IMG/VR virus record: IMGVR_UViG_3300035498_001143
Origin: a virus
Lineage: Duplodnaviria > Heunggongvirae > Uroviricota > Caudoviricetes
Length of the DNA stretch: 64,000 nucleotides
Direction: 5' to 3' (one strand)
In this document: positions 27,682-49,715 of the stretch, piece after piece
Position numbering within the stretch: position 1 is the stretch's first letter
Layout: every line of letters begins with the position of its first letter
Translations under genes and position numbers: made by a program
Notes under the pieces: generated by a model
Database searches by the model: none
Seen by the model: only the letters and a program-made list of their open reading frames with translations
Told to the model about the DNA's origin: nothing

Positions 27682-28155
27682 ATGAGTAAATATAGTGGAA
27701 AATGTGATTTCTATGATATAATTGAAATTCACGGTATAGATAAAATATTAAATAGTAGGGTTTTTGTTGGCGATGAAGAAGTATTTTTAAAATCAGAAAA
27801 AGATTGTATTAAATATTATCCTTATGTTGTTTCTACTTCTCATACAGATAAGGACGGTGGTACATTTCATTTAACAGATAGGTCTTGGGTAGATATTGAA
27901 GAAGAAGGAATGTTGAAAATTTATTTAAATATATTTATTAGATACTTTAATAAATGCAAAAGAAATAATATAGAATATAAGATAGAAGATGCTGTTAAGC
28001 AAACATTAAGTAATGATGAAAAAGCCGTTTTAGAATTAGCTAATAGAGTAAAAGATAATGGTAAAACCGCTACTTATGAAGGCGTACATTTAAAATTGTA
28101 TGATTATTATAGGAATCTTTTAAATGATAAATTAAAGGAGGTTGATAATCTTTGA
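27682..28155 (+). CDS. hypothetical protein
   Basis: ORF with RBS. Confidence 0.4.
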   Translation: MSKYSGKCDFYDIIEIHGIDKILNSRVFVGDEEVFLKSEKDCIKYYPYVVSTSHTDKDGGTFHLTDRSWVDIEEEGMLKIYLNIFIRYFNKCKRNNIEYKIEDAVKQTLSNDEKAVLELANRVKDNGKTATYEGVHLKLYDYYRNLLNDKLKEVDNL

Positions 28156-29003
28156 GTGATTATATTAAATCTCCAATTAATTATATTGGTGGTAAATTTA
28201 AATTATTAAAACATATAATTCCTGAGTTTCCAAATGATATAAATACATTTGTAGATTTATTCGGTGGAGCTTTTAATGTTGGTATTAATGTAAATGCTAA
28301 TAAAGTTATATATAATGATATAATCAATTATTTATCTGAATTATTTATATATTGGAAAAGTACAGAGCTTAAAGAAATAAATAATTATATTGATGAAAAA
28401 ATAAACGAGTATGATTTATCTTCAACTAATTTAGATGGATTTCTTAATTTTAGAAAAAATTATAATACAGTAAAAGATATTAGAGATTTATTTATATTAC
28501 TATGTTATTCTTTTAACTATCAAATAAGATTTAATAATAAACAAGAGTATAATAGTAGCTTTGGTAAAAAGAAAAGTACAATGAATCCTAACATACGAAG
28601 AAATTTAAATGTTTTTGTTGATAGATTACATAGTGGTAATTATGAGTTTGTAAATAAAAACTTTGTAAATTTTGATTTTTCTATATTAAATAAAAATGAT
28701 TTTGTTTATTGTGATTGTCCTTATACAATTAGTACAGGCGTTTATCAAGATGGTAAAAGAGGCTTTAATGGTTGGTCTAAAGAAGATGATACTAAATTGT
28801 TTAATATTCTTGATGAATTAAATAATAGAAATATTAGATTTGCTTTAAGCAATGTTTTTGAGAATAAGGACTTGAAGAATGAAGAGCTGATTGAATGGGC
28901 TAATAAGTATAACGTAATACATATAAACACAACATATAATGGAAGTAATTATCAAAGAAAATCAACAAGTAAAACCGATGAGGTTTTAATAAAAAATTAC
29001 TAA
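28152..29003 (+). CDS. Dam-like (D12-class) N6-adenine DNA methyltransferase
   Basis: N-terminal YIGGKFKLL...FVDLFGGAF (SAM-binding) and DCPY catalytic motif (a DPPY variant). Confidence 0.7.
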   Translation: MSDYIKSPINYIGGKFKLLKHIIPEFPNDINTFVDLFGGAFNVGINVNANKVIYNDIINYLSELFIYWKSTELKEINNYIDEKINEYDLSSTNLDGFLNFRKNYNTVKDIRDLFILLCYSFNYQIRFNNKQEYNSSFGKKKSTMNPNIRRNLNVFVDRLHSGNYEFVNKNFVNFDFSILNKNDFVYCDCPYTISTGVYQDGKRGFNGWSKEDDTKLFNILDELNNRNIRFALSNVFENKDLKNEELIEWANKYNVIHINTTYNGSNYQRKSTSKTDEVLIKNY

Positions 29004-29046
29004 GTAAAAGATTATTAAGTAAAGAAATATTAAGGAGGAAATAAAA

Positions 29047-29244
29047 ATGTACATTAATGTAACTAATTTTTTAAAGAAGAACCATATCAAGGACGTAGAA
29101 TTGGCTAATATCTTAGATATTTCATTTTATTCAGTAAAGAACAAATTAACAGGTAAACAACCATTCAAGACTTGTGAATTGAAAGTATTTAAGCAGCATT
29201 TCAATTTATCTGATGAGGAGTTCTGTAATATATTCTTTAACTAA
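29047..29244 (+). CDS. hypothetical protein
   Basis: ORF. Confidence 0.3.
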   Translation: MYINVTNFLKKNHIKDVELANILDISFYSVKNKLTGKQPFKTCELKVFKQHFNLSDEEFCNIFFN

Positions 29245-29261
29245 TTTATGGGGGAATAATA

Positions 29262-29543
29262 ATGGAAAATAAAAAGAGTAGTATTTTCACAAAGATAGTT
29301 CCTTATGTTATTGTCTTTCTAATTGGTGGTGCGATTGCTTGTGCTGCTACTGTTTATGTATATAGTTCAAAAACTTTTGCTATTGAAGTATTTGACGAAG
29401 ATAATAATTATTTATCCACAATAACAGAAAGATGGAGAAGTTGTCAGATAAAGAATAATTCTATTGTTGCTATTAAGTCAGATAATAGTACAGAAGAAAT
29501 TGGTTTTGGAGAAGGTAGTGTAATAATACGACCTATTAAATAA
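29262..29543 (+). CDS. hypothetical membrane-anchored protein
   Basis: N-terminal TM. Confidence 0.35.
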   Translation: MENKKSSIFTKIVPYVIVFLIGGAIACAATVYVYSSKTFAIEVFDEDNNYLSTITERWRSCQIKNNSIVAIKSDNSTEEIGFGEGSVIIRPIK

Positions 29544-29545
29544 TT

Positions 29546-29578
29546 AAAAGAGAGGATAATCTCCTCTCTTTTTTTATT
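29546..29578. terminator. bidirectional terminator
   Basis: aagagaggataatctcctctctt between convergent genes. Confidence 0.55.
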
Positions 29579-30020
29579 TTCTTAAATATTCATTGGCTAA
29601 TAATAAAAACTCCATAGGGTCAGAAATGATTTTCCTCTTATTATCATTAATTACTTTTACAGATTTATTTTCAGGTAAACTTAAAAAATGATGTAAACAA
29701 ACAGTTATATCTTTATTATTTGTTATTTCAAAAAGTAAAGGAATACAATTATCTCCACAATTAGAAATATTAAAAATCATTTTAGGGTTAGAGTAAATAA
29801 GTATTAATGTTTTTACTCCCGTAGAAAGATTTATAGGAGAAAATGTACCTAAAATATCGTTTTTTATAATATTATTATCTATAACTTCTGAATTATCTAT
29901 TTCTTTAATCATTCTTTTTACAAAATTATCAGAAAACCATTTATCTTTATAAGAATTATTAAAATATAAATCCGTATTATATATTTCGTCTTTATGACTT
30001 CCAAAATATATTTTAAGCAT
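29574..30020 (-). CDS. hypothetical protein
   Basis: Minus-strand ORF. Confidence 0.4.
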   Translation of the reverse strand: MLKIYFGSHKDEIYNTDLYFNNSYKDKWFSDNFVKRMIKEIDNSEVIDNNIIKNDILGTFSPINLSTGVKTLILIYSNPKMIFNISNCGDNCIPLLFEITNNKDITVCLHHFLSLPENKSVKVINDNKRKIISDPMEFLLLANEYLRK

Positions 30021-30114
30021 TTAAAAACACTTCCTTTCTTTTAATAATATTTATTTTAATAAATTTTCTTAATATATATTTATATATAGATTTTAATAAT
30101 TGAGGTGTAAGATA

Positions 30115-31071
30115 ATGAGCGATAAACAAAATTTAGATATATTTAGCTCTCCTAAAAGATTGTATGAGAAGTTAAATGAAAATGGATATATATGTACAAA
30201 AGAATTAGCTTTAATTGTTTATTTGGCATATAAGTTAGATAGACCTATAAATCTTGCAGGTTTACCTGGTTGTGGTAAAACAGAGATAGCCAAACAGGTA
30301 GCATTTTTAATGAATGGTACAGACCCCATTAGATTACAATGTTATGATGGACTTAGTGCAGAAGAAGCATTATATTCTTGGAATTATCAAAAGCAATTAT
30401 TGTATATTGAAGCTAATAAGAATAATCAAGATTGGGAAGCTATGGAGAATGATTTATATTCAGAAAAATTTATTTCTCCACGTCCATTATATAAAGCAAT
30501 TACATCTGATAAGAAAGAAGTATTATTAATTGATGAAATAGATAAAGCGGATGAGGATTTTGAATCTTTCTTGTTAGAGTTCCTTGCAGAACAACAAATA
30601 TCAATAGCTGAGAATAAAACAATAAAAGCTAAAAATAAACCATTAGTTTTTATTACTTGTAATGATAAAAGAGAACTTTCAGAAGCATTTAAAAGAAGAT
30701 GTTTGTTTTTATATATTGATTATCCATCTGTTGAAGAAGAAATAAAAATAGTATTATCTCACGTACCTAATATAAACAATTTATTAGTGTCACAGGTAGT
30801 TACATTCGTAGATAAAATAAGAAATGATAAATTGAAAAAAGCTCCATCTATTTCAGAAACTATTGACTGGGCAAAAACATTAGTTACTTTAAATGTAAAA
30901 GAATTATCTCCATCTGTTATTAAACAGACAATGAATGTATTATTAAAAACTCAATCTGATATTGAAATAGGCAATAGAAAGACTAATCAATATTACAAAG
31001 AATTACCTAAGGAATCTATTGTTAAGATAGATACAGTAGAAGATATTAGTGATGATGAATGGAATTTTTAA
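30115..31071 (+). CDS. MoxR-like AAA+ ATPase
   Basis: Walker A GLPGCGKT, Walker B LLIDEIDKAD, sensor motifs; the size and order of the motifs are typical of MoxR/RavA. Confidence 0.7.
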   Translation: MSDKQNLDIFSSPKRLYEKLNENGYICTKELALIVYLAYKLDRPINLAGLPGCGKTEIAKQVAFLMNGTDPIRLQCYDGLSAEEALYSWNYQKQLLYIEANKNNQDWEAMENDLYSEKFISPRPLYKAITSDKKEVLLIDEIDKADEDFESFLLEFLAEQQISIAENKTIKAKNKPLVFITCNDKRELSEAFKRRCLFLYIDYPSVEEEIKIVLSHVPNINNLLVSQVVTFVDKIRNDKLKKAPSISETIDWAKTLVTLNVKELSPSVIKQTMNVLLKTQSDIEIGNRKTNQYYKELPKESIVKIDTVEDISDDEWNF

Positions 31072-31087
31072 TTTTTTAAAAAAGCAC

Positions 31088-31116
31088 TTGACAAATCACA
31101 GAATTTGTAGTATAAT
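31088..31116 (+). promoter_or_regulatory. sigma70 promoter TTGACA-17-TATAAT
   Basis: Exact consensus. Confidence 0.6.
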
Positions 31117-31203
31117 ATACTTGTAAACAGAAAACAAGATATGAATAATAAATGAAAATGTATTATTCAATCTAATCTATCAAAGAAAAAGGAGATAATT
31201 AAA

Positions 31204-31701
31204 ATGAAAAGATTAGCAGGCAATGAAGAAAGTTCTTGGTTAAATATAATTGAGAACAACGAGGAAGAAATTATTAATGGTATAAAAGAAGCTTATGGTA
31301 TTACAATAAGACGTTCAGACCTTAAAGCGACTGTTAGTATTGATGATGAAGGTAATGTAGATGTATGGACACAACCACAGGGCAGTACTTCTTTTAATAA
31401 CAGCGAAGATGTAATAGACTTGTGTAGCGTTGAAAATGTCAACTATGAACCTGAAATCAGCGATGAAGAATTAAAAGATGATTTAAAGAATAACTTATCA
31501 GCAGAAGATTTTGCAGAAATTGAGGAATACATAAAAGAAAATGGTGGCTCTTATATAAGTGCGGTTGAATGTGATTTTGACCAATATATCGGTTTTCTTC
31601 ATGCATTGGAAGAAAAAGAAATTGAGTGGGAAGCAACAGAGGGTGCAGAAGATTACGCAAGAGTAAAATATGACGATATTGTTGCTGAATGGACAGACTA
31701 A
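31204..31701 (+). CDS. hypothetical acidic protein
   Basis: ORF; D/E-rich. Confidence 0.4.
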   Translation: MKRLAGNEESSWLNIIENNEEEIINGIKEAYGITIRRSDLKATVSIDDEGNVDVWTQPQGSTSFNNSEDVIDLCSVENVNYEPEISDEELKDDLKNNLSAEDFAEIEEYIKENGGSYISAVECDFDQYIGFLHALEEKEIEWEATEGAEDYARVKYDDIVAEWTD

Positions 31702-31712
31702 AAAAATTTTTA

Positions 31713-31743
31713 AAAGGTATGTTTTATACATACCTTTTTTTAT
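31713..31743 (+). terminator. rho-independent terminator
   Basis: aaaggtatg...catacctttt plus T8. Confidence 0.6.
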
Positions 31744-31815
31744 TGCAAAAAATTAACAAAAAGTAAGATTCTTAATATTAAATAATAAGATATTTTTATA
31801 AAAGGAAGTGAAAAA

Positions 31816-32115
31816 ATGACAGCTGAAACAAAACAAGGTATTATTTTCGATAGAATGACAAAGGAATTTGATACTTTTAAAAATACGGTATTTTGTAAAA
31901 GCAAGAAAACTATTGAAAATAATAGTTATGAATATTTTGTAAAAAGGTGTATGGTTGATTGTTTTGATTTATTTTCCTTTGATGTTGAAATATTAAACAA
32001 TTTAATAGATAAAGAAGCACCATTACAATATTTGTATGATAAATACCTTGCTGATTGTAAAGTCAATGTTCTTTTTTTCTTTAGAGATTATTTAAGTAAA
32101 AACGGGAGCAAATAA
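31816..32115 (+). CDS. hypothetical protein
   Basis: ORF. Confidence 0.35.
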   Translation: MTAETKQGIIFDRMTKEFDTFKNTVFCKSKKTIENNSYEYFVKRCMVDCFDLFSFDVEILNNLIDKEAPLQYLYDKYLADCKVNVLFFFRDYLSKNGSK

Positions 32116-32117
32116 AA

Positions 32118-33215
32118 ATGATTAATTTAATAAATGGTGATTGTCTTGAAAAAATGAAAGATATACAAGATAAGTCAATAGATTTAATTCTGTGCGATTT
32201 GCCTTATGGTACTCAAAAAAGTAATGGTTGTAAATGGGATATAATTATTCCTTTTGACAAACTATGGGAGCAATATAATAGAATCATAAAAGATGATGGT
32301 GCTATTGTTTTATTCGGAAAAGAACCTTTTAGTTCTTTATTAAGAGCGAGTAATTTAAATATGTATAAATATGATTGGATATGGAGTAAAGATACCAAGA
32401 GTAATTTTATGCAGTGTAATTATCAACCATTAAATAATTTGGAATGTATATCTGTGTTTTCAAAGGCTTACGCAAGAGAAATAAAAGATAAAGTAAAAAT
32501 GAAATACAATCCTCAATTTTCAGAGGGAGATAGTTATAAACTCCCAAAAGAAAGTAGTACGACAGAAATATTTAGTTCTAATCATAAAAACGGTAAATAC
32601 ATACATAAAGATAGAGATACATCAAAAAGATACCCATATAATACATTATTCTTTAATTCTGTAAAAGGAAAAGAAAAAATACATCCTACACAAAAACCAA
32701 TTGATTTATTAGAGTATTTAATAAAAACATATACAGATGAAAATGATTTAGTATTAGATAACTGTATGGGAAGTGGAAGTACAGGTATTGCTTGTATTAA
32801 TACTAATAGAAATTTTATAGGAATAGAAAAAGATATTGATTTTTATATAAAGGCGAGTAATAGAATAGAAGACCATAAAAATAGCATTTTATTAACTCAA
32901 GCAGTAAATGTAACTATTGATTGTATTAACGAAGATTATGAAGAATATGATGAAAATTACAATGAAGAAAATATTCAAGATTTTGAAATAAATTGTTTTG
33001 AATTGCCTAAACGTGATATTGATGATATTGCAGGAAATGAAATACAATTAGGAAATAATTATTTTTTTCGAGAACCTGAACAATTAGATAAAGTAGAATT
33101 TATTTCGTTTAAAAAACCTGATGATGAATATTTAGAACCACTTAATTCTGAAAGATTTGAAAATATTTTTGTAAAAGAAAGGTTTTATGAAGAAAAACCT
33201 TTAGAAAGGAAATAA
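32118..33215 (+). CDS. N4/N6 DNA methyltransferase, beta class, with acidic C-terminal extension
   Basis: N-terminal DLILCDLPYGT (catalytic) and C-terminal HPTQKP...DNCMGSGSTGIAC (SAM binding), the circularly permuted beta order. Confidence 0.75.
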   Translation: MINLINGDCLEKMKDIQDKSIDLILCDLPYGTQKSNGCKWDIIIPFDKLWEQYNRIIKDDGAIVLFGKEPFSSLLRASNLNMYKYDWIWSKDTKSNFMQCNYQPLNNLECISVFSKAYAREIKDKVKMKYNPQFSEGDSYKLPKESSTTEIFSSNHKNGKYIHKDRDTSKRYPYNTLFFNSVKGKEKIHPTQKPIDLLEYLIKTYTDENDLVLDNCMGSGSTGIACINTNRNFIGIEKDIDFYIKASNRIEDHKNSILLTQAVNVTIDCINEDYEEYDENYNEENIQDFEINCFELPKRDIDDIAGNEIQLGNNYFFREPEQLDKVEFISFKKPDDEYLEPLNSERFENIFVKERFYEEKPLERK

Positions 33216-33233
33216 TTAGAAAGGAAACAAAGA

Positions 33234-33917
33234 ATGAAATTATATAATAAAGATTGTTTAGAAGTTTTAAATAGATTAGAAGATAATTCAATTGACTTAT
33301 TGATTACTGACCCACCATATCCTGTAACATCAAGAGGCTCTGCAGGTAATAGCGGTGGTATGATGCAGAAAGATGTAAATAAAAAAGGTAAGGTTTTTCA
33401 ATTTAATGATATTAAATGTGAAGATTATGCACCTGAATTTTTTAGAATATTAAAAGACGGTAGCCATTGTTATGTAATGACTAATCACGTTAATTTAATT
33501 AATATGCTTAATACTTTTACTAATTGTGGTTTTCATTTTATTAAATGCTTAATTTGGAATAAAGGCAATAAGATTATGGGTCAGTATTATATGTCACAAT
33601 TTGAATACATACTCTTTTTTAGAAAAGGCAAAGGCGTAAAAATAAATAATTGTGGTACATCTGATATTTTATCTATTCCTAATAAAAAGAAAAAAGATGA
33701 GAATGGAAAGAACTTGCACGATACAGAAAAACCAGTTGAGCTTATGGAAATATTAGTTGGTAATTCAAGTAAAGAAAATGATACAGTTATTGACCCATTT
33801 ATGGGGATTGGTGCAACAGGAGTTGCTTGCAAAAATTTAAATAGAGATTTTATAGGCGTTGAATTAGATGAACATTATTTTAATATTGCCAAAGATAGGA
33901 TAAATAAAGGGGAGTAA
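33234..33917 (+). CDS. N4/N6 DNA methyltransferase, beta class
   Basis: DLLITDPPY then HDTEKP...DPFMGIGATGVAC. Confidence 0.75.
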   Translation: MKLYNKDCLEVLNRLEDNSIDLLITDPPYPVTSRGSAGNSGGMMQKDVNKKGKVFQFNDIKCEDYAPEFFRILKDGSHCYVMTNHVNLINMLNTFTNCGFHFIKCLIWNKGNKIMGQYYMSQFEYILFFRKGKGVKINNCGTSDILSIPNKKKKDENGKNLHDTEKPVELMEILVGNSSKENDTVIDPFMGIGATGVACKNLNRDFIGVELDEHYFNIAKDRINKGE

Positions 33918-33918
33918 T

Positions 33919-35129
33919 ATGAAAAAAATTAAATTAACTGCAAATATTCTTTTTAGTGGTATTGGCTGTCAAGAATATGGATGGAGAAAGAGTAATTTAT
34001 TTGATATAGAAGTATTAAATACTTCTGATATATACAAAGAAGCTGTATTATCTTATGCTGCTATACATTGTGATATGACTAATGAAATGGTAGATAGTTA
34101 TGATTATCCAACAAAAGAAGAAATGATTGAACATTTAACTAAAATAAATTTAGGATATGATGCAGATAAAAATAAACCATTTAATTGGAATAAGGTAAAA
34201 GATAATGATTTAAAGAAATATTACCTTGCTTGTAAATTAACAAATAATTTAGGTGATATTTCAAAAATTGAAGATTTACCTTATGCTGATTTTTGGACTA
34301 TTTCTTTTCCTTGTCAATCAATTTCAATATGTGGAAAATTAAAAGGTTTTACAGAGGGTTCTAATACAAGAAGTAGTTTATTATGGGAAAATATAAGATT
34401 ATTAAAAATTGCTAAAGAAAAGAATAAAACACCTAAGTATCTTATGTTCGAAAACGTAAAAAATTTACTTAGTAAAAGGTTTGAAAATGATTTTAAAGAT
34501 TTAGTTGATATATTAGACGATTTAGGTTTTAATATTTATTATAACGTATTAAATTCTAAATGTTGTGGAGTACCACAAAATAGAGAAAGAGTTTTTGTTA
34601 TTTGTATTAGAAAAGATACTGATACTAATTTATTTACTTTTCCAAAACCATTTGATAATGGAATGAGATTAAAAGATATTTTGGAAGATGAAGTTGATGA
34701 AAAATATTACATAAGTGAAGCAGCACAGAAAAAATTAAAATTTATAACTACTAATAGTAAAAACGATACTTTCCAATTAAAACAAATTGCTCAAATGTAT
34801 GGTACAGATAAAGAACCTAATCCTCAGGCAGGTAGAGTTTATAGTGAAGATTATATTTGCCCTACTTTAGATACTTGTAGCGGGGGAATAGAATGCCAAA
34901 AGTGTATAGAGAACCAAGAGTAAGAAAACTTACACCAAGAGAATGCTTTGCATTACAAGGTTTTACTTTTGAAGATTGTAATAAAGCAATAGATATAGGT
35001 GTTGCTGATTCTCATTTATACAAACAAGCAGGTAATGGTATTACGACTAATTGTTGTGCATTGTTAGCAGAACATTTATATAAAGCTCAATATAATAACT
35101 TTTACATTTGTAGTGATGAAAAATATTAA
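33919..35129 (+). CDS. C5-cytosine DNA methyltransferase interrupted by a frameshift at a G5 run (34882-34886)
   Basis: Motif I FSGIGC, IV FPCQ, VI ENV in the frame ending at 34923. Motif IX RKLTPRECFALQGF and X GNG are in the frame opening at 34881. One extra G would fuse them. Confidence 0.6.
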
Positions 35130-42330: not shown

Positions 42331-42400
42331 ATGTAAGTTTTTATCTATAAATATTAATATTTTTTGTATACTAATATTTAAAAAACAATCTGTCAAATTG

Positions 42401-42978: not shown

Positions 42979-43024
42979 GTATTTTTTATTAGAAAAATAA
43001 ATTTTAAGAGATGAGTGTGATTTA

Positions 43025-43879
43025 ATGAATAATTTAATTCCACCTTGTTCTTATCAAGGCGGCAAACAAAGACTTGCAAAACAAATTGTAGATATTATAT
43101 ATAAAGAAAATAATATTGATGAAAATACAAAATTTTTTGATATTTGTTGTGGTAGCGGAGCTGTTAGTTTAGAGTTAATAAATAATAACTTTAATTCTAA
43201 TAACATTACAATGATTGATATAAATATTTTTGGACTTTTCTATGAATATGTTTCTAAAAATAAATTTGATTTAAATATTTTTAAAGAAGAAATAGATAAA
43301 TTACCTGATAAAGAATACATACAACTTTATTTAAAACAATTAAGTGATTTACCTATTGATGAAGAAAAATTAGTATATCAATATTTATTGTTGCAGGCAG
43401 GTAGTTTTGGAAGTAAACAAATTTATATAAAAGATAATAAATGGAAGAATAACACGTTTAGAAATTATTGGCAACCTACTAAGAGTAGTAATAGAAAAAG
43501 TCCTGTCAATCCCATGATGCCGATGCCTGATACGTTATTTGAAAGAGTAGAAAATATTGTAAATAAATTAAGTGGTAAGATTGTTGCATACAATGATGAT
43601 ATTTTTAATATATTAAATATTTTTTCCAATTTAGATAATAATGTTATTATTTACATTGACCCACCGTACTCAAACACGACAAAATATAAAGATAGTTTTG
43701 ATGTTTATGAATTGATTGATAAGTTAAAAAACATAAATGATTTTACTATTTATATATCAGAAGGCGTTGAATTGAACAATGCTAAAAACACATATTTACT
43801 TTCAAGAGGTAGAACTAAAGGTAATATTAGTGGTAATGTAACTAAAAAGCCTGTTGAAGAATGGTTAAATAAATTCTGA
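43025..43879 (+). CDS. Dam-like (D12-class) N6-adenine DNA methyltransferase
   Basis: YQGGKQRLAK...CCGSGAV and IYIDPPY. Confidence 0.7.
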   Translation: MNNLIPPCSYQGGKQRLAKQIVDIIYKENNIDENTKFFDICCGSGAVSLELINNNFNSNNITMIDINIFGLFYEYVSKNKFDLNIFKEEIDKLPDKEYIQLYLKQLSDLPIDEEKLVYQYLLLQAGSFGSKQIYIKDNKWKNNTFRNYWQPTKSSNRKSPVNPMMPMPDTLFERVENIVNKLSGKIVAYNDDIFNILNIFSNLDNNVIIYIDPPYSNTTKYKDSFDVYELIDKLKNINDFTIYISEGVELNNAKNTYLLSRGRTKGNISGNVTKKPVEEWLNKF

Positions 43880-43906
43880 AAGTAAATTCTGAAAGGAATA
43901 TAAATA

Positions 43907-44239
43907 ATGAAATACAAACCAACAATTAAAGAATACTTAACTTGGATAAAAGAAGATATAAAAAGATTATATTATTTAATACGTTATTTTACAAAGGCAT
44001 TATTTAATGTAGATAAAAATATTTTATTAAGTAAAGATTTTAAAGTGGATAGTTATATTATTACTTTTCATTCTGACGATTATAGCGGAGCTTGTTATGA
44101 TGAAAGAAGATTTGATAATTTTAAAGACGCTTATGAACTTTACGAATTAAGTAAAAATCAAAAATGTAGAGAAGATTTTGTAAGATTGCATATTTCGATT
44201 GAATATATTGGAAATATAGAAATAGCAAGATATAAATAA
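43907..44239 (+). CDS. hypothetical protein
   Basis: ORF. Confidence 0.35.
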   Translation: MKYKPTIKEYLTWIKEDIKRLYYLIRYFTKALFNVDKNILLSKDFKVDSYIITFHSDDYSGACYDERRFDNFKDAYELYELSKNQKCREDFVRLHISIEYIGNIEIARYK

Positions 44240-44251
44240 GAGGTTTAATAT

Positions 44252-44641
44252 ATGAGAGAAATTATTTTTTTAATAAGTATTTTATTTTTTCACGTAATAG
44301 AAGATTTTTATTTTCAAGGGTGGTTAGCTTCTGCCAAACAAAAAACTTGGTGGATAAAAAACAATCCTAATGAAATGTATAAATATGATTATGTTGTAAT
44401 ATTACTTGTACATTCGTTTTCATGGACTGTTATGATACATATACCAATTTTAATTTATATGTATTTATTTAATATTTCAGTAGATGTTTCTGATTTTTCG
44501 TTTATGTTTATATTAACGATAATTATACATTGTCTTACTGATAATGCAAAAGCTAATTTATATAAAATAAATCTTATTCAAGACCAATTAATTCATTTAT
44601 TGCAAATTATTGTATTATGGGTTACTTACATAAATTTATAA
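44252..44641 (+). CDS. small membrane protein
   Basis: Three hydrophobic helices. Confidence 0.35.
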   Translation: MREIIFLISILFFHVIEDFYFQGWLASAKQKTWWIKNNPNEMYKYDYVVILLVHSFSWTVMIHIPILIYMYLFNISVDVSDFSFMFILTIIIHCLTDNAKANLYKINLIQDQLIHLLQIIVLWVTYINL

Positions 44642-44659
44642 ATTAAAGAAAGGAAATGA

Positions 44660-45097
44660 ATGATGAAAAAAATAAAATTGTGGATTTATAATTTTATTGT
44701 TAATGCTATCGCTGCTGATGACGATTTAAATTTAACAGGTAAGCAAAGAAGTCAATTATTTAGTCTAACTAATAAATTTAAAGTTAGAAATTGTAAAAAG
44801 AATTTAATTTATATAAGTCATCCTTATCAAGATAAAAAAGAAAATATTGAGGATATAGAAAAAATCATCAATAACTTGGTGAAGAAATATGATGAATATA
44901 CATTTGTTTCTCCTGTTCATTGTTTTGGATTTATGTATACAACTGTTTCTTATGATAGAGGGTTAGATTTTTGTCTTGATTTATTAGATTGCTGTGAACA
45001 AATGTGGGTGTTTGGTACTTATACAAATAGTATAGGTTGTACTAAAGAGATTGAATATTGTATTACAAATAATATTAAATATAAAATTTTTAGTTGA
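44660..45097 (+). CDS. hypothetical protein (nucleoside 2-deoxyribosyltransferase-like fold is a weak guess)
   Basis: YISHPY...VFGTY...G pattern only. Confidence 0.3.
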   Translation: MMKKIKLWIYNFIVNAIAADDDLNLTGKQRSQLFSLTNKFKVRNCKKNLIYISHPYQDKKENIEDIEKIINNLVKKYDEYTFVSPVHCFGFMYTTVSYDRGLDFCLDLLDCCEQMWVFGTYTNSIGCTKEIEYCITNNIKYKIFS

Positions 45098-45099
45098 TG

Positions 45100-45140
45100 A
45101 AAAAAAAGAGGGTAGAAAAACTACTCTCTTTTTTTAATTA
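45100..45140 (+). terminator. rho-independent terminator
   Basis: aagagggtagaaaaactactctctt plus T7. Confidence 0.55.
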
Positions 45141-45439
45141 TTATAACATTAAAGTTATTTGCTTAATAATATGTATACTATCTATCTTATTTTGCGTTTA
45201 TTTGCCTTTTTAATGGTTTGTAACTTTTTAGGTGAACGAATTATCGTCAGTCATCTTAAAATTCAAAATAAGGGCATTTCTGAGCGTTTTAGAGCCATAT
45301 ATTAAATCATTCAATAGTCCGTCATTCATTTTTTGTTATATAAGTCTTAATTTTTATAATTTTGAACTAATGAAATTGAGAGTGAATCTTAGAGTTAATT
45401 TTTATCCCTATATAAAAATTCATCAAATAGAGATTTACT

Positions 45440-45907
45440 TAGGTGTTTAATTATTATTAATTATTTTAATATATTATTTAAAAGCTTAATATATTTCTTA
45501 GTATATCTTAAAGCTTTAGTATATAATTAATTATTAATATATATAATATAAAAAGAATAATCATGCATGGATGTATATTAATTATTTTATATATTAATTT
45601 AAATATTAATTTAAATATATATAGATATACTAAGATGAATCTATATAGTATAATTAATATATATATACATGATTATTAATAATTAATATATAGTAGTAGT
45701 AGGGGACACCCAAAAATGTTGATAAGTGCCTCAAATGAGTACTATGTACTCGAATAAGTATGTTAATAACGTGTTGATAAGTATGTTAGTTATAAACATT
45801 GTCAACATCAATTAACATAGTTTGAAAAATAAAACGATTTCTTGTGTTGATAAAAAAGGACTTATTAACACCTATCAACATACAATGTTGATAACTATGT
45901 TGATAAT
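45440..45907. repeat. origin-like region: ~260-bp extreme AT tract followed by seven DnaA-box-like 9-mers (TGTTGATAA / TTATCAACA)
   Basis: Direct copies at 45717, 45772, 45845, 45886 and 45898; inverted copies at 45799 and 45872. Each differs from TGTGGATAA by one base. 45440-45700 is almost pure A+T with many short palindromes. Confidence 0.5.
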
Positions 45908-45932
45908 GTGAATAACTTTCTAAGGGAAAAAA

Positions 45933-46693
45933 TGATGAATGAGTATGAATTGTATAATGATGATTGTTTAGAACAAATGAAAAATATTGATGATAAATCT
46001 ATTGATTTGATATTAACTGATTTGCCATACGGTACTACTAATTGTAAGTGGGATTCAATTATACCATTAGATTTATTATGGGAACAATATAATAGAATTA
46101 TTAAAGATAATGGAGCGATTCTTTTGTTTGCACAAACACCATTTGATAAGATATTGGGTTGTTCTAATTTAAAAATGCTGAGATATGAATGGATATGGGA
46201 AAAGACACAAGCAACAGGACATTTCAATGCTAAGAAAATGCCTATGAAAGCCCACGAAAACATATTAGTATTTTATAAAAAATTGCCTACATACAATCCT
46301 CAAAAAATCCAAGGGTGTAAGCCTGCACACGGAGCTGTAAGAAAAGCAGAAGTTGGTAACAAAACACAAATATATGGAAAAGTAAAAGAAGATTCTGTTT
46401 ATGAAGGTGGTAATACAGATAGATACCCTCGTTCTGTAATAATATTTGCTTCCGATAAACAAACTTGTTGTTTACACCCTACACAAAAGCCTGTTGCTTT
46501 ATGTGAATATTTAATTAAAACATATTCTAATGAAAATGATATAGTCTTGGATAGCTGTATGGGGAGTGGAACTACAGGAATAGCTTGTTTAAATACTAAT
46601 AGAAAATTCATAGGAATTGAAAAAGAAAAACAATATTTTGATATAGCTAAAAAAAGAATTGATGATTTTTTAAAGGAGAAAAACATTGAGTAA
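45933..46693 (+). CDS. N4/N6 DNA methyltransferase, beta class (paralog 1)
   Basis: DLILTDLPYGTT then HPTQKPVALCEYLI...DSCMGSGTTGIAC. Confidence 0.75.
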
Positions 46694-47438
46694 TTATGAA
46701 ATTTACAATGATGATTGTTTAGAAAAAATGAAAGATATTTCTGATGAAAGTATAGATATGATTCTTTGTGATTTGCCTTATGGAACAACAGCTTGTAAAT
46801 GGGATATAATTATCCCTTTCAATAAGTTATGGGAACAGTATGAAAGAATAATAACGAATACAGGTGTAATTTGTTTATTCGGACAAGAACCATTTTCAAG
46901 TATGTGTAGAATGAGTAATTTAAATTTATATAGATATGATTATGTATGGCAAAAACAAAAACCAAGTAATTTTCAATTGATGAATTATCAATGTGGTAGA
47001 GTTCACGAAAATATAATGATTTTTAGTAAAGCAAAGGCTTGTTATACTAAAAATGGTGCTAAAATAAATTATTTTCCAATAATGGAAAAAAGAGAAAAAG
47101 TAAGAAAAGCTAATGCTAAAATTTATAATAATGGTAAAGCAGACTTATTACATAATTACAAAACAGAAGATAATTTCAAAACCTATGAAGAAAAACACCC
47201 TATTTCTATTTTAAAATTTAACGCAGTAGAGCATAGAGTTCATCCAACTCAAAAGCCTATTGATTTATTAGAATATCTAATTAAAACATTTACTAAAGAG
47301 AATATGACTGTATTAGATAATTGTATGGGTAGTGGTAGTACGGGTGTTGCTTGTTTAAATATAAATAGGAATTTCATAGGGATAGAGAAAGAGAAGAAAT
47401 ATTTTGATATCGCAAAGGACAGATTAAAAGATGTTTGA
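46686..47438 (+). CDS. N4/N6 DNA methyltransferase, beta class (paralog 2)
   Basis: DMILCDLPYGTT then HPTQKPIDLLEYLI...DNCMGSGSTGVAC. Confidence 0.75.
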   Translation: MSNYEIYNDDCLEKMKDISDESIDMILCDLPYGTTACKWDIIIPFNKLWEQYERIITNTGVICLFGQEPFSSMCRMSNLNLYRYDYVWQKQKPSNFQLMNYQCGRVHENIMIFSKAKACYTKNGAKINYFPIMEKREKVRKANAKIYNNGKADLLHNYKTEDNFKTYEEKHPISILKFNAVEHRVHPTQKPIDLLEYLIKTFTKENMTVLDNCMGSGSTGVACLNINRNFIGIEKEKKYFDIAKDRLKDV

Positions 47439-48183
47439 AAATTGTAATTATGAATTATTTCACGGTGATTGTTTAGAGGTAATGAATAATTTAATAAATA
47501 ATAATATAAAAGTTGATTTAATTTTAACAGATTTACCTTATGAAACAACAAAATGTAAATGGGACATTTTAATTCCTTTTGAAGATTTATGGGATAGATA
47601 TAATAAATTAACAGAAGATAATACACCTATTGTTTTATTTGGGCAAGAACCTTTTAGCTCTTTATTAAGAACAAGTAATTTAGAAAATTACAAGTATGAT
47701 ATTTATTGGGAAAAAGAAAGATTAACTAATATAAATCAAGTTAAAAAAAGAGTAGGAAAAACTGTTGAAACTATTTCTATCTTTTATAAAAAACAATGTA
47801 TTTACAATCCTCAAATGATTAAATATGATGGTAAACCGAGAAGTAATAAAGTAAAGAATGGTAAATTAGGAAAATTAACTGATGATAATGAAAAGAAAGT
47901 ATTTGAATATAAAGATACAGGGTGGAGATATCCTACACAAGTTTGGAAATATCAAAGAGATTGTCTAACTTCTAATTTACATCCTACTCAGAAACCAATT
48001 AAGTTATTAGAAGATTTAATAAAAACTTTCTCTAACGAAAATGCAATCGTATTAGATTCTTGTATGGGTTCAGGTAGCACAGGAGTTGCCTGTTTAAATA
48101 CTAATAGAAAATTTATAGGCATAGAGAAAAATGATGAATATTTTGATATAGCAAAGAAAAGAATTGAGGAGCTTGTTTTATGA
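47431..48183 (+). CDS. N4/N6 DNA methyltransferase, beta class (paralog 3)
   Basis: DLILTDLPYETT then HPTQKPIKLLEDLI...DSCMGSGSTGVAC. Confidence 0.75.
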   Translation: MFENCNYELFHGDCLEVMNNLINNNIKVDLILTDLPYETTKCKWDILIPFEDLWDRYNKLTEDNTPIVLFGQEPFSSLLRTSNLENYKYDIYWEKERLTNINQVKKRVGKTVETISIFYKKQCIYNPQMIKYDGKPRSNKVKNGKLGKLTDDNEKKVFEYKDTGWRYPTQVWKYQRDCLTSNLHPTQKPIKLLEDLIKTFSNENAIVLDSCMGSGSTGVACLNTNRKFIGIEKNDEYFDIAKKRIEELVL

Positions 48184-48929
48184 AATATTTTGGTAGTAAA
48201 AGTAGAATAGCAAAACAAATAATACCCATAATTCAGGAGTACATTGATAAGGGTAATTTTGATACATATATTGAGCCTTTTTGTGGCGGTGCAAATGTAA
48301 TAGATAAAATAGATTGTAAAAATAAAATTGGTTATGATTTAAACAAATATTTAATTGCATTATTAAATTATGTAAAAGACGGTGGAGAATTATATTCATC
48401 AGTAGATAAAGATTTATATGATAAAGCAAGAACAGCTTTTTATAATGATGACAATTCCACATTTACTGATTGGCAAATTGGTAATATTGGTTTTCTTGCT
48501 TCTTATAATGGTCGTTTTTATGATGGTGGTTATGCAAAGCCCGTATATGAAAAAACTAAAAAGGGCACAAGATATCGTGATTATTACAAAGAGGGTAAAG
48601 ATAATTTACTTAATCAAGCCCCTGATTTGAAAGATGTTAAATTTATAAATAAAGATTATAAAGATATAATTCTTCCTGATGATTGTTTAGTATATTGTGA
48701 CCCACCGTATAAGAATACTAAAAAGTTTTACATAGATAAGAATTTTGATTATGATGCTTTTTGGAATAAAATAAGAGAATGGAGTAAAGACCATATTGTT
48801 TTAGTTAGTGAACAAGAAGCACCTAATGATTTTGTTTCTATATGGGAAAAAGATGTAAATAGAAGTATTAATGTTAATAACAAATTTAGTGCAACTGAAA
48901 ATATGTTCATACATAAAAGTTTAACGTGA
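48180..48929 (+). CDS. Dam-like (D12-class) N6-adenine DNA methyltransferase
   Basis: YFGSKSRIAK...YIEPFCGGANV and VYCDPPY. Confidence 0.75.
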   Translation: MKYFGSKSRIAKQIIPIIQEYIDKGNFDTYIEPFCGGANVIDKIDCKNKIGYDLNKYLIALLNYVKDGGELYSSVDKDLYDKARTAFYNDDNSTFTDWQIGNIGFLASYNGRFYDGGYAKPVYEKTKKGTRYRDYYKEGKDNLLNQAPDLKDVKFINKDYKDIILPDDCLVYCDPPYKNTKKFYIDKNFDYDAFWNKIREWSKDHIVLVSEQEAPNDFVSIWEKDVNRSINVNNKFSATENMFIHKSLT

Positions 48930-48938
48930 GGAAAAATA

Positions 48939-49715
48939 ATGGAAATAAATAAAGTTTATAATATGGATTGTTTAGAGTTATTAAAAACAATAGATAAAAA
49001 TTCAATAGATTTAATTCTTATAGACCCACCATATTTAATTAGTCGTGATAGTCATTTTACCCAAGGTGCTAAAAATGATGAAATGAAAAGTAAATATGGA
49101 AAACATAAAATAGATTTTGGTGATTGGGATAAAGGAGAATTAAATCTTCAAAACATATTATCTGAAAGTTATAGAATATTAAAAGACAATGGTACTTTAA
49201 TAATGTTTTATGATTTTTGGAAAATGCAAGAAGTAAAAGAAACTGCTGAACAAATAAAATTTAAGCAACCAAGGTTAGGTATATTTAATAAAACTAATCC
49301 TGTACCTGTAAATGCTAAAATTAATTATTTATCTAATGCGAAAGAATTTTTTGTTACTTTTGTAAAGAAGTCAAAACCAACTTTTAATTCTTATTACGAT
49401 AATGCAGAATATTATTTATCTGAAAATTCAGAAGAAGCAGATACATATTATTTTCCAATAGTACACGGTAAAGAAAGAACTAAACACCCTACTCAAAAAC
49501 CATTATCTTTAATAAAAGATTTAATAAAGAAACATAGTAATGAAGATGATATAGTATTAGATTTCTTTGCAGGTAGTGGTACAACAGGAGTAGCTGCTTC
49601 TGAATTAAATAGAAATTATATATTATGTGAAATAAATAAAGAATATTATGAAATAATCAAAGAAAGATTATCTAAAGAAGAATTATCCAAAAAACCTTCT
49701 AAAGATATAAATTAA
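48939..49715 (+). CDS. N4/N6 DNA methyltransferase, beta class
   Basis: DLILIDPPY then HPTQKPLSLIKDLI...DFFAGSGTTGVAA. Confidence 0.75.
   Translation: MEINKVYNMDCLELLKTIDKNSIDLILIDPPYLISRDSHFTQGAKNDEMKSKYGKHKIDFGDWDKGELNLQNILSESYRILKDNGTLIMFYDFWKMQEVKETAEQIKFKQPRLGIFNKTNPVPVNAKINYLSNAKEFFVTFVKKSKPTFNSYYDNAEYYLSENSEEADTYYFPIVHGKERTKHPTQKPLSLIKDLIKKHSNEDDIVLDFFAGSGTTGVAASELNRNYILCEINKEYYEIIKERLSKEELSKKPSKDIN

What the first reader, a model, noticed from the sequence alone, without database searches (positions are those of the whole stretch)
28152..49715. Thirteen orphan DNA methyltransferases in ~21 kb
The methyltransferases fall into four classes, and no restriction endonuclease partner is evident. 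Dam-like D12 genes lie at 28152, 36484, 43025 and 48180. Beta-class N4/N6 genes lie at 32118, 33234, 45933, 46686, 47431 and 48939. A C5 gene lies at 33919. A small DPPY gene lies at 41005, and a gamma-like NPPY gene at 41515. A radical-SAM enzyme adjoins the right end. This density points to broad-spectrum self-methylation as an anti-restriction strategy. Each enzyme presumably covers a different host restriction-modification specificity.
Basis: partly seen in the sequence, partly recalled or inferred. Interest (0 to 1): 0.7.

Follow-up and report, generated by a model that had tools for sequence, protein, structure and literature searches.

The report
Thirteen-gene DNA methyltransferase island, huge phage
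A roughly 500-kb uncultivated phage-like genome carries 13 DNA-methyltransferase genes in 21.5 kb (two broken in this strain) and has also deleted many restriction sites from its own DNA, a very large example of the known ways phages evade bacterial restriction enzymes.

Summary
All 13 methyltransferase (MTase) loci exist at the stated coordinates. Eleven pass curated Pfam cut-offs: 4 D12, 6 beta N4/N6 and 1 C5. The small DPPY and NPPY genes belong to phage families annotated as DNA MTases, but DNA versus RNA substrate stays unresolved.

Three caveats:
- The C5 and NPPY genes are frameshifted here but intact in close relatives.
- One Dam-like gene has DCPY instead of DPPY.
- No nuclease partner was detectable.

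The island sits in the replication module of a 25% GC, roughly 500-kb phage-like genome. Relatives share 12 of the MTases, all under purifying selection (dN/dS 0.00-0.27).

The window also shows extreme restriction-site avoidance:
- GATC 0 (81 expected).
- CTAG 0 (60 expected).
- CATG 7 (80 expected).
- GGCC, CCGG, GCGC and GAATTC all 0.
- GTAC, AGCT and TGCA are at expectation.

My best reading is a two-pronged anti-restriction strategy: delete the sites that can be deleted and methylate the rest, with MTase genes gained, lost and decaying. This is a very large new member of a known kind, orphan phage MTases. Chlorovirus NY-2A, with 18 MTases, is the closest precedent. Interest is moderate.

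The parts
28152..29003 (+). D12-class (T4 Dam-like) N6-adenine DNA MTase with motif IV DCPY. The window lineage carries it as an insertion.
   Evidence: Pfam PF02086 98.5 bits. TIGR00571 116.6 bits, above its cut-off. T4 Dam structure match 1.9e-35, with DCPY aligned to DPPY. It is 49% identical to the Streptococcus phage Javan105 Dam, which has DPPY. Window 28116-29228 corresponds to only 49 nt in the relatives.
32118..33215 (+). Beta-class N4/N6 DNA MTase of the DLPY subfamily, with a 110-aa acidic C-terminal extension.
   Evidence: PF01555 104.7 bits. phrog_67 6.5e-75. It is 46-53% identical to the genes at 45908, 46686 and 47431. dN/dS 0.20.
33234..33917 (+). Beta-class N4/N6 DNA MTase with DPPY.
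   Evidence: PF01555 125.2 bits. phrog_67 1.9e-67. dN about 0 against relatives.
33919..35129 (+). C5-cytosine DNA MTase broken by a frameshift. ORF 33919-34923 holds motifs I-VIII and the target-recognition domain. ORF 34893-35129 holds motifs IX-X in the -1 frame. The junction is at the G5 run 34882-34886.
   Evidence: PF00145 160.8 bits. The dcm profile matches positions 33-231 in the first ORF and 277-327 in the second. The sequence is shown. Relatives read through the junction as CSGGNRMPKVY in an intact 403-aa gene. The same 334-aa and 78-aa pair occurs in an independent assembly of SRR11792607. dN/dS is 0.13 and 0.10 for the two halves.
36484..37317 (+). D12-class N6-adenine DNA MTase with DPPY.
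   Evidence: PF02086 103.5 bits. phrog_56 1.1e-51. dN/dS 0.13. A terminator-like site follows at 37510-37531.
41005..41505 (+). Small (166 aa) DPPY amino-MTase of a highly conserved phage family. The ORF opens at 40954.
   Evidence: phrog_11619 'DNA methyltransferase' 4.6e-54. 60-76% identity to Staphylococcus, Streptococcus, Croceibacter and Erwinia phage proteins. More than 7,000 homologues at about 80% identity, none with a Pfam domain. DPFAN and DPPYSPRQ are invariant. The structure model is poor (pLDDT 65) and its fold matches are mixed RNA and DNA MTases. dN/dS 0.05.
41515..42307 (+). NPPY amino-MTase, gamma-like, from a family about 263 aa long, frameshifted here. ORF 41515-42099 (194 aa) stops after the G5 run 42092-42096. 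The rest of the gene is in ORF 42119-42307.
43025..43879 (+). Divergent D12-like N6-adenine MTase with CGSG motif I and DPPY.
   Evidence: PF02086 30.8 bits against a cut-off of 22. phrog_56 9.4e-15. No PDB sequence relative. dN/dS 0.08.
45908..46693 (+). Beta-class MTase (DLPY), first gene of a five-MTase operon. The likely start is the ATG at 45932.
   Evidence: PF01555 114 bits. Paralogy shown. Its stop overlaps the next gene's start.
46686..47438 (+). Beta-class MTase (DLPY).
   Evidence: PF01555 107.9 bits. Closest solved structure is the H. pylori M1.HpyAVI/DpnA type. DLPY is invariant in the alignment and present in 115 of 120 homologues. dN/dS 0.08.
47431..48183 (+). Beta-class MTase (DLPY).
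   Evidence: PF01555 111.7 bits. dN/dS 0.07.
48180..48929 (+). D12-class N6-adenine MTase with DPPY.
   Evidence: PF02086 64.6 bits. phrog_56 4.4e-38. dN/dS 0.12.
48939..49715 (+). Beta-class MTase (DPPY, CcrM-like), last gene of the operon. A terminator-like hairpin lies at 49707-49742.
   Evidence: PF01555 153.9 bits. CcrM model match 4.5e-34, below its cut-off. The terminator-like repeat is family D10.
49775..50887 (+). Probable radical-SAM protein of the PA0069/Rv2578c/SplB-like group. It is an adjacent, lineage-specific insertion with no shown link to the MTases.
   Evidence: CSFGCEYC motif in the translation. NF033668 match 1e-15, only 57.7 bits against a cut-off of 360. No Pfam hit. Absent from relative L004. 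The only viral homologue sits in an unrelated phage that uses genetic code 25.
1..64000 (.). Restriction-site avoidance across the whole window. GATC, CTAG, GGCC, CCGG, GCGC, CGCG, GAATTC and AACGTT are absent. CATG, ATGCAT, GAGTC, GTCTC, CTGAAG, CTCTTC and CCAG are strongly depleted.
   Evidence: Markov expectations are. In 200 synonymous-codon shuffles of 81 genes, GATC was 0 against 80.8 +/- 6.1, CTAG 0 against 60.4 +/- 6.3 and CATG 7 against 79.7 +/- 5.8. GTAC, AGCT, TGCA, GATATC and AAGCTT were at expectation. Relatives also have no GATC but keep 4-10 CTAG per 20 kb.

Best explanation
The region is a DNA-modification island in the replication and nucleic-acid module of a huge (about 0.5 Mb), 25% GC, uncultivated phage. 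The host is probably a gut or rumen member of the Bacillota.

The island holds 13 stand-alone MTase genes in at least five transcription units. One unit is a translationally coupled five-MTase operon at 45908-49715.

Inferred mechanism: after infection the enzymes methylate newly made phage DNA (mostly N6-adenine, possibly some N4-cytosine, plus C5-cytosine) at a set of different short motifs. Progeny genomes are then not cut by the many Type II and IIS restriction systems of the host population.

This works alongside a second defence that is shown directly in the sequence. The phage has removed restriction sites that can be removed by synonymous change: GATC, CTAG, CATG, all GC-only tetramers, GAATTC and several Type IIS sites. 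Methylation is left to cover sites that a 75% AT coding genome cannot avoid.

The island is evolutionarily dynamic. Single MTase genes are inserted, replaced, frameshifted or altered in the catalytic motif between strains that are 82-98% identical. This fits enzymes becoming dispensable once their target sites are gone or the host repertoire shifts.

Shown: gene identities, the frameshifts, conservation, purifying selection and site avoidance. Inferred: activity on phage DNA, distinct specificities, the protective role and the host.
For: - Family membership of 11 genes above curated cut-offs. The two small genes match phage MTase families.
- Catalytic and AdoMet motifs are present. DLPY is the family norm for its subfamily.
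- The four DLPY paralogues share 58-65% identity in the catalytic regions and about 20% in the central target-recognition region. The D12 genes are only 25-27% identical to each other.
- No nuclease or defence profile was found in any neighbouring ORF.
- Twelve of the 13 MTases are conserved and intact in relatives from several metagenomes. Their dN/dS of 0.00-0.27 is comparable to topo II (0.04) and ClpP (0.06).
- Site avoidance is extreme and selective.
- Operon structure is supported by 11 terminator-like sites against 2.8 expected.
- Phage context: PHROG replication families, IMG/VR membership, topo II closest to Bacillus phage G, and no tRNA or rRNA.
- ClpP is closest to Lachnospiraceae and other Clostridia at about 70% identity.
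- Gene flux and decay are documented.
- In gut phages, more MTase genes go with denser methylation and more motifs (PMC10477858).
Against: - There is no methylation data, and no specificity could be assigned because REBASE was not available.
- Two MTases are frameshifted and one carries DCPY in this strain.
- With no GATC in 64 kb, a GATC-type Dam would have no target here.
- For the NPPY and small DPPY proteins, structural neighbours include rRNA and tRNA MTases as well as DNA MTases.
- Restriction endonucleases are hard to detect by profile, and about 440 kb of the genome was not seen, so 'orphan' is not proven.
- IMG/VR trims the first roughly 124 kb of the 502.7-kb contig, so whether this is a free phage, a provirus or another element is not fully settled.
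- No virion genes lie in the window.
Confidence: 0.62

Rival explanations
1. Virus-encoded restriction-modification for host takeover, as in chloroviruses. Some or all MTases would protect phage DNA from the phage's own site-specific nucleases. Those nucleases would degrade unmethylated host DNA or exclude competing phages.
For: Chlorovirus NY-2A encodes 18 MTases, and about 25% of chlorovirus MTases have companion endonucleases used to degrade host DNA (PMC7019647). Several neighbouring ORFs have no detectable family: 26101, 26937(-), 27682, 31204, 37554 and 43907. Most of the 0.5-Mb genome was not seen.
Against: No nuclease fold or PADLOC restriction-enzyme model hits any neighbour. The ORF overlapping D12_28152 (27682-28155) is conserved in relatives that lack that MTase, so it is not its partner. 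The five-MTase operon has no room for partner genes. Site avoidance points to restriction pressure from outside.
Confidence: 0.1
2. Largely neutral accumulation. MTase genes would be mobile 'moron' cargo piling up in a permissive region of a very large genome, with little current function and many on the way to decay.
For: Presence or absence of single MTase genes differs between strains (D12_28152 in the window; a different, frameshifted T4 Dam-like gene in the relatives). Two MTases are frameshifted and one has DCPY here. A third frameshifted gene lies in the same island.
Against: dN/dS of 0.00-0.27 for all 12 shared MTases, even for both halves of the broken genes. Synteny is conserved across at least five contigs. 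Translationally coupled operon architecture. Catalytic motifs are conserved.
Confidence: 0.1
3. Epigenetic housekeeping. The methylation would mainly serve the phage's own replication, mismatch-repair evasion, transcription timing or packaging, as with P1 Dam at the pac site, rather than anti-restriction.
For: The MTases are interleaved with topoisomerase II, AAA ATPases and nucleotide-metabolism genes in the replication module.
Against: One or two enzymes would be enough for such roles. Thirteen enzymes with divergent recognition domains, together with strong restriction-site avoidance, fit defence evasion better.
Confidence: 0.08
4. Not a phage. The window would belong to a small low-GC cellular genome or a giant plasmid-like element, whose own MTases are remnants of restriction-modification systems. 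The site avoidance would then reflect the cell's own systems.
For: There are no virion genes in the window. ABC transporter, OmpA, SPFH, ClpP/ClpX and HU genes are present. IMG/VR keeps only the last 379 kb of the 502.7-kb contig.
Against: No tRNA, rRNA or ribosomal protein genes in 64 kb. Roughly half of the ORFs scanned matched no Pfam family, and coding is almost entirely on one strand. The split topo II is T4-like and closest to phage G. There are many PHROG matches. Four IMG/VR contigs carry the same region.
Confidence: 0.07
5. Most of these are RNA or protein MTases rather than DNA MTases.
Against: Eleven genes exceed curated cut-offs of DNA-MTase families. Their secondary RNA or protein MTase hits are all below cut-off. 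T4 Dam, M1.HpyAVI, CcrM, M.RsrI and M.MboIIA are the closest solved relatives. For the NPPY protein, M.BseCI, M.TaqI, MmeI and CamA align over more residues (172-201) and at higher identity than the RNA enzymes.
Confidence: 0.03

Closest known systems
Orphan phage DNA methyltransferases used as anti-restriction (T4 Dam, P1 Dam, prophage MTase clusters such as Streptococcus phage Javan105)
   Same: Stand-alone MTases of the same Pfam families with no nuclease partner, carried on a phage. D12_28152 matches the T4 Dam structure at 1.9e-35 and is 49% identical to the Javan105 Dam, which itself sits in a row of three MTases.
   Different: The scale is different: 13 loci of four or five types in 21.5 kb. 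By comparison, 72% of MTase-carrying gut phages have only one (PMC10477858). The island is combined with near-total removal of many restriction sites. Four genes belong to a DLPY subfamily, a motif variant that a search for DLPY together with 'methyltransferase' did not find in the held papers.
Chlorovirus NY-2A and relatives (up to 18 virus-encoded DNA MTases)
   Same: A large dsDNA virus with a double-digit number of m6A and m5C MTases. Many are orphans of unknown purpose, and some are pseudogenes (PMC7019647).
   Different: That is a eukaryotic algal virus. About a quarter of its MTases have adjacent nucleases used to degrade host DNA, and no partner was found here. Its genes are dispersed rather than packed into one island.
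Multispecific C5 MTases of Bacillus phages SPbeta, phi3T and rho11 (from my own knowledge, not tested here)
   Same: The same presumed goal of protecting phage DNA against several host restriction specificities at once.
   Different: Those phages do it with one protein carrying several target-recognition domains. Here the solution is many separate mono-specific genes, mostly adenine MTases.
Restriction-site avoidance in virulent phages (for example Staphylococcus phage K lacking GATC, from my own knowledge; survey in PMC6286503, listed but not read)
   Same: Complete loss of GATC and other palindromes by synonymous change.
   Different: Here avoidance covers about 20 motifs and coexists with a large MTase arsenal. 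Close strains also differ: CTAG is 0 in 64 kb here against 4-10 per 20 kb in relatives.
M.AquI-type split C5 methyltransferase (from my own knowledge)
   Same: The C5 enzyme is encoded as two polypeptides, cut between the variable region and motifs IX-X. The second ORF has its own ATG (34893) preceded by GGGGG.
   Different: Here the split is a strain-specific 1-nt frameshift of a gene that is contiguous in relatives. It is not a conserved two-subunit design, and activity was not tested.

Membership tests
D12-class (alpha) N6-adenine DNA MTase, PF02086 | Profile score above the curated gathering cut-off | tested here: met
   28152: 98.5 bits. 36484: 103.5. 43025: 30.8. 48180: 64.6. Cut-off 22.
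D12-class (alpha) N6-adenine DNA MTase, PF02086 | Motif I (FxGxG) placed before catalytic motif IV (DPPY) | tested here: inconclusive
   Met in 36484, 43025 and 48180. 28152 has DCPY aligned to the DPPY of T4 Dam and Javan105. The effect on catalysis is unknown.
Beta-class N4/N6 DNA MTase, PF01555 | Profile score above cut-off, with the circularly permuted order (motif IV near the N-terminus, AdoMet motif near the C-terminus) | tested here: met
   Six genes score 104.7-153.9 bits against a cut-off of 26.7. (D)(P/L)PY lies at residues about 27-43, and the AdoMet motif (xMGSGST or FxGxG) lies near the C-terminus.
Beta-class N4/N6 DNA MTase, PF01555 | Canonical (D/S)PP(Y/F) catalytic tetrapeptide | tested here: not met
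   Four of the six genes (32118, 45908, 46686, 47431) have DLPY. The variant is invariant in the alignment and present in 115 of 120 nearest homologues, so it is a subfamily trait and not decay. 33234 and 48939 have DPPY.
C5-cytosine DNA MTase, PF00145 | Motifs I, IV (PCQ), VI (ENV), VIII (QxRxR), IX and X in one polypeptide | tested here: not met
   All motifs are present but spread over two overlapping ORFs in different frames. The gene is contiguous in relatives.
Gamma-class N6-adenine DNA MTase (M.TaqI / Eco57I type) | Profile match above cut-off, NPPY after motif I, and a DNA-recognition domain | tested here: inconclusive
Orphan (solitary) MTase / phage anti-restriction by self-methylation | No cognate restriction endonuclease adjacent | tested here: inconclusive
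   No nuclease or restriction-enzyme profile in any neighbouring ORF with Pfam, PHROGs or PADLOC. However, restriction enzymes often escape profile searches, and six neighbours have no family at all.
Orphan (solitary) MTase / phage anti-restriction by self-methylation | Phage DNA is methylated at the enzymes' motifs and thereby resists host restriction | not testable with these tools
   This needs methylome data or restriction-protection assays.
Type II restriction-modification system | MTase paired with a nuclease of the same specificity | tested here: not met
   No partner was detected. The five-MTase operon has overlapping start and stop codons with no intervening ORFs.
Radical SAM superfamily (gene 49775) | CxxxCxxC cluster motif plus a profile match above cut-off | tested here: inconclusive
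   CSFGCEYC is present. NF033668 scores 57.7 bits against a cut-off of 360 and TIGR04470 scores 32.6 against 410. No Pfam hit at E<=0.01. The only PDB sequence hit is Elp3 at E 0.86.

The most novel reading that the evidence does not exclude
The dozen enzymes, most of them adenine MTases acting on a 75% AT genome, could together methylate a large fraction of all adenines, as in chlorovirus NY-2A where 37% of A is methylated. The result would be a 'methyl-hypermodified' DNA. It would work as a generic shield against many nuclease-based defences, not only classical restriction-modification systems. It would also work as a self-marker that lets phage nucleases destroy unmethylated host DNA. MTases would be recruited as stop-gaps and discarded once their target sites have been purged from the genome.
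Probability: 0.15. Interest if true: 0.75.

Novelty: new member of a known kind. Interest (0 to 1): 0.45.

Why it matters
- Size of the arsenal: if the enzymes are active, this would be one of the largest MTase sets seen on a bacterial virus, with a dozen untested specificities. That includes a widespread DLPY beta subfamily and two small phage-only families with no Pfam model. It is a useful source of new methylation tools.
- Evolutionary model: one genome shows both anti-restriction routes at full strength, site deletion and methylation. Close strains differ in which sites are purged and which MTases are intact. This makes it a natural system for testing how phages trade one route against the other.
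- Host ecology: it implies a host population with an unusually rich restriction repertoire.

Tried and rejected
- A near-identity DNA search of the island against GenBank phages found nothing.
- tRNA and Rfam scans of the window were empty. An Rfam E-value scan of the 440-nt insert in the topoisomerase gene was also empty.
- I tested whether the window uses a recoded stop codon, prompted by a code-25 homologue of the radical-SAM gene. I rejected this. TGA ends 13 of 59 long plus-strand ORFs, and making TGA or TAG a sense codon merges almost nothing. The code-25 contig shares only that one gene with the window.
- Host search with the TnpB protein against genomes found nothing. ClpP gave only a phylum or class-level hint.
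- I first suspected that the short NPPY ORF was a naturally small enzyme, because rV5-type phage proteins are about 190 aa. I rejected this after finding that close homologues are about 263 aa and the missing part lies in the +1 frame.
- I considered assembly error for the two frameshifts. The same truncated products occur in independent Logan assemblies of two runs, so the changes are in the reads. I cannot exclude that those runs are the window's own source data.
- Programmed frameshifting was considered and not supported. There is no X_XXY_YYZ heptamer, only a G5 run.
- The structure model of the small DPPY protein was too poor (pLDDT 65) for a meaningful fold assignment.
- Literature searches for phages with ten or more MTases, for the DLPY motif and for the sample accessions found nothing relevant.
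- Sigma-70 promoter-like matches were not above the shuffle expectation (153 against 163), so I make no promoter claims.

Full report
**Observation**

- Four D12-class genes (28152, 36484, 43025, 48180), six N6_N4_Mtase genes (32118, 33234, 45908, 46686, 47431, 48939) and one C5 gene (33919) exceed Pfam's curated cut-offs.
- The small DPPY gene (real start 41005) and the NPPY gene (41515) do not reach the Pfam cut-offs.
- The small DPPY gene matches phrog_11619 'DNA methyltransferase' at 4.6e-54. It is 60-76% identical to proteins of Staphylococcus, Streptococcus, Croceibacter and Erwinia phages.
- The NPPY gene matches phrog_5172 and phrog_799 and the rV5-type 'putative DNA N6-adenine methyltransferase'.
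- MTase genes occupy about 49% of the 21.5 kb.
- No further MTase lies elsewhere in the window.
- No neighbouring ORF matches a nuclease or a defence model.
- Gene 49775 has a CxxxCxxC motif and weak, sub-threshold matches to PA0069/Rv2578c-type radical-SAM families, so that call is plausible but soft.

**Corrections to the finding**

1. The C5 gene is in two pieces. ORF 33919-34923 carries motifs I-VIII and the recognition domain. ORF 34893-35129, in the -1 frame, carries motifs IX-X.
   - Close relatives read straight through as ...CSGGNRMPKVYREPRVRKLT... in a 403-aa gene.
   - The window has lost one nucleotide at GGGGGAAT.
2. The NPPY gene stops at 42099 after TGGGGGTAA, where relatives have TGGGGAAAT.
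   - Its last 62 codons are in 42119-42307, which ends at a terminator-like hairpin.
   - All 120 listed homologues are about 260-265 aa.
3. D12_28152 has DCPY where T4 Dam and its nearest homologue (Streptococcus phage Javan105, 49% identity) have DPPY.
4. Four beta enzymes have DLPY, but that is the rule in their family: invariant in a 14-sequence alignment and present in 115 of 120 homologues.

Only five G5 runs exist in the 64 kb, and two of them are the two frameshift sites. The same truncated products appear in independent assemblies of runs SRR11792607 and SRR11792608. The changes are therefore in the reads and not one assembler's artefact.

**Context**

- The window is 25% GC, is coded almost entirely on one strand, and has no tRNA or Rfam match.
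- It encodes HU, SbcCD, RNase H, a 5'-3' exonuclease, a T4-like split topoisomerase II, ClpP, ClpX, AAA ATPases and a TnpB.
- It has no close DNA match among GenBank phages. Its topoisomerase is closest to that of the 497-kb Bacillus phage G, at 36% identity.
- A 99% identical MTase lies on a 502,690-bp JGI contig.
- Four IMG/VR contigs of 54-379 kb carry the same region at 82-98% nucleotide identity.
- ClpP is about 70% identical to ClpP of Lachnospiraceae and other Clostridia from gut and rumen. This hints at a Bacillota host.
- No virion gene lies in the window, and IMG/VR keeps only the last 379 kb of the big contig. 'Huge phage' is the best reading but is not proven.

**Comparison with relatives**

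- Twelve of the 13 MTases are present and intact in the relatives, in the same order.
- D12_28152 is a 1.1-kb insertion specific to the window lineage. The radical-SAM gene is another such insertion.
- Between the C5 gene and D12_36484, the relatives carry a different T4 Dam-like gene (42% identical to D12_28152, with DPPY). That gene is itself frameshifted in motif I.
- At the same place the window has a P-loop/GNAT gene of phrog_11143 that is also split across two frames.
- The relatives also have a PAPS-reductase gene and a 319-aa gene upstream of the small DPPY gene. Both are missing here.
- dN/dS between the window and its relatives is 0.00-0.27 for every shared MTase, including both halves of the two broken genes. 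The comparison values are 0.04 for topo II and 0.06 for ClpP.
- The set is therefore maintained by selection, while individual members turn over.

**Divergence of specificity**

The four DLPY paralogues are 58% identical in the N-terminal catalytic part and 65% in the C-terminal AdoMet part. They are only 20% identical in the central region where beta-class enzymes read DNA. The D12 genes share 25-27% identity. This fits different target sequences, but no target could be assigned.

Sites absent from the 64 kb:
- GATC (131 expected)
- CTAG (95 expected)
- GAATTC (24 expected)
- GGCC, CCGG, GCGC and CGCG
- AACGTT

Sites strongly depleted:
- CATG occurs 12 times against 135 expected.
- ATGCAT, GAGTC, GTCTC, CTGAAG, CTCTTC, GAAGAC, GAATGC and CCAG are depleted four- to twenty-fold.

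I then shuffled synonymous codons among 81 genes, which keeps proteins and codon usage fixed:

| Site | Observed | Shuffle mean +/- sd |
|---|---|---|
| GATC | 0 | 80.8 +/- 6.1 (minimum 63) |
| CTAG | 0 | 60.4 +/- 6.3 |
| CATG | 7 | 79.7 +/- 5.8 |
| CTGAAG | 0 | 22.5 |
| GTAC | 105 | 109 |
| AGCT | 150 | 167 |
| TGCA | 159 | 161 |

GATATC and AAGCTT were also at expectation. The avoidance is therefore selective and acts at the DNA level. The relatives also lack GATC but keep 4-10 CTAG sites per 20 kb, so purging differs between close strains.

**Mechanism**

The best-supported reading is a two-pronged anti-restriction strategy. Sites that synonymous change can remove have been removed. A large set of stand-alone MTases, made from at least five transcription units, methylates the rest on replicating phage DNA. 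One of those units is a translationally coupled five-gene operon (45908-49715) closed by a terminator-like hairpin.

The T4 Dam-like genes are the ones in decay: DCPY in the window and a frameshift in the relatives. The genome has no GATC at all. That would be expected if they are GATC enzymes, but their specificity is not known.

- Shown: gene identities, gene integrity, conservation, selection and site avoidance.
- Inferred: activity, targets and the protective role.

**The two small enzymes**

- An AlphaFold model of the intact NPPY protein (pLDDT 89) is an N6-adenine-type Rossmann MTase.
- The DNA enzymes align over more residues, but an RNA substrate is not excluded.
- The model of the small DPPY protein was too weak to use.
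- In unrelated phage-like contigs the small DPPY gene sits next to a C5 MTase and a PAPS-reductase gene. That fits a DNA-modification role.

**Rivals**

- A chlorovirus-like virus-encoded restriction system (PMC7019647) is not supported by any nuclease hit. It cannot be excluded while six neighbours are unassigned and 440 kb is unseen.
- Neutral accumulation is contradicted by the low dN/dS.
- A purely regulatory role does not need 13 enzymes.
- A cellular origin is unlikely given the gene content.

**Novelty and score**

- Orphan phage MTases and site avoidance are both textbook anti-restriction devices.
- Chlorovirus NY-2A, with 18 MTases, is a precedent for the scale.
- Among 8,848 gut phage genomes only 34% have any MTase, and 72% of those have one (PMC10477858). 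Thirteen loci in one island is therefore far in the tail.
- I found no report of a bacteriophage with ten or more.
- I file it as a new, very large member of a known kind, with moderate interest (0.45).
- Its value lies in the untested specificities, the DLPY subfamily, and the visible interplay between site purging and MTase turnover.

Noticed in passing
window 38149-40925: The topoisomerase II A-subunit gene is interrupted by a 440-nt, GC-richer, structured insert. Exon 1 ends ...PLIDFHG and exon 2 resumes GNFDGDQYAAYRYTE, just before the catalytic tyrosine. The insert is conserved in relatives. It is a candidate self-splicing (group I-like) intron, but no Rfam family matches at E<=1.
   Followed up: partly
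L004 14222-14657 (relative); window 52049-52052: The ClpX gene of the relatives carries a 435-nt insertion that splits it into 168-aa and 148-aa ORFs. The window's ClpX is uninterrupted (420 aa). This may be another mobile intron-like element.
   Followed up: no
window 35142-36487: ORFs 35142-35858 (P-loop) and 35891-36487 (GNAT acetyltransferase-like) match the two halves of one PHROG family (phrog_11143, profile positions 9-191 and 237-352) in different frames. This is a third frameshifted gene in the island. A GNAT enzyme coupled to a Dam-like gene recalls phage Mu Mom, but that link was not tested.
   Followed up: partly
L009 6900-7768 (relative): Where the window has the P-loop/GNAT gene, the relatives have a T4 Dam-like D12 MTase (42% identical to D12_28152, with DPPY). 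It is itself frameshifted inside motif I (FVDLFGG | GYNVGINVN).
   Followed up: partly
L003 4073-5152 (IMGVR_UViG_3300001517_000008): The only viral homologue of the radical-SAM gene (64% identity) has 16 in-frame TGA codons, most aligned with glycine in the window protein. That contig therefore appears to use genetic code 25 (Gracilibacteria/Absconditabacteria type). It shares no other gene with the window.
   Followed up: partly
window 48180-49715: D12_48180 and the beta MTase 48939 are in the same reading frame, separated by a single TGA (48927-48929). In a host that reads TGA as sense they would be made as one fused 536-aa double MTase.
   Followed up: no
window 42401-42548: Three copies of a roughly 31-nt direct repeat (ATTTACTTTCCAATAT...TAATACC, spaced 64 and 53 nt apart) lie in the 700-nt non-coding stretch upstream of D12_43025. 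They may be a regulatory element.
   Followed up: no
window 29540-29575, 45100-45135, 49707-49742: Three terminator-like hairpins share a common sequence (AAAGAGAGG...CCTCTCTTTTTTT). Terminator-like sites in 27.5-47 kb number 11 against 2.8 expected from shuffles.
   Followed up: partly
window 8608-9759: An IS605-family TnpB (OrfB_IS605 plus the Cas12f-like TNB domain) sits inside the phage replication module. No relative was found in 185,579 reference genomes with the pattern search.
   Followed up: partly
L004 3270-4268; L096-L098 about 9756-10746: A PAPS-reductase-family gene lies immediately upstream of the small DPPY MTase in the relatives. It lies about 1.2 kb downstream of that MTase's homologues in unrelated phage-like contigs, where a C5 MTase also overlaps the small MTase gene. 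The gene is missing from the window. This may be a conserved DNA-modification module.
   Followed up: no
JGI contig 3300043080 Ga0484759_000001 against IMGVR_UViG_3300043080_000590: The coordinates show that the 379-kb IMG/VR entry is the last 379 kb of the 502.7-kb contig. The first roughly 124 kb was trimmed, so whether this is a free megaphage, a provirus or another element is not fully settled.
   Followed up: no
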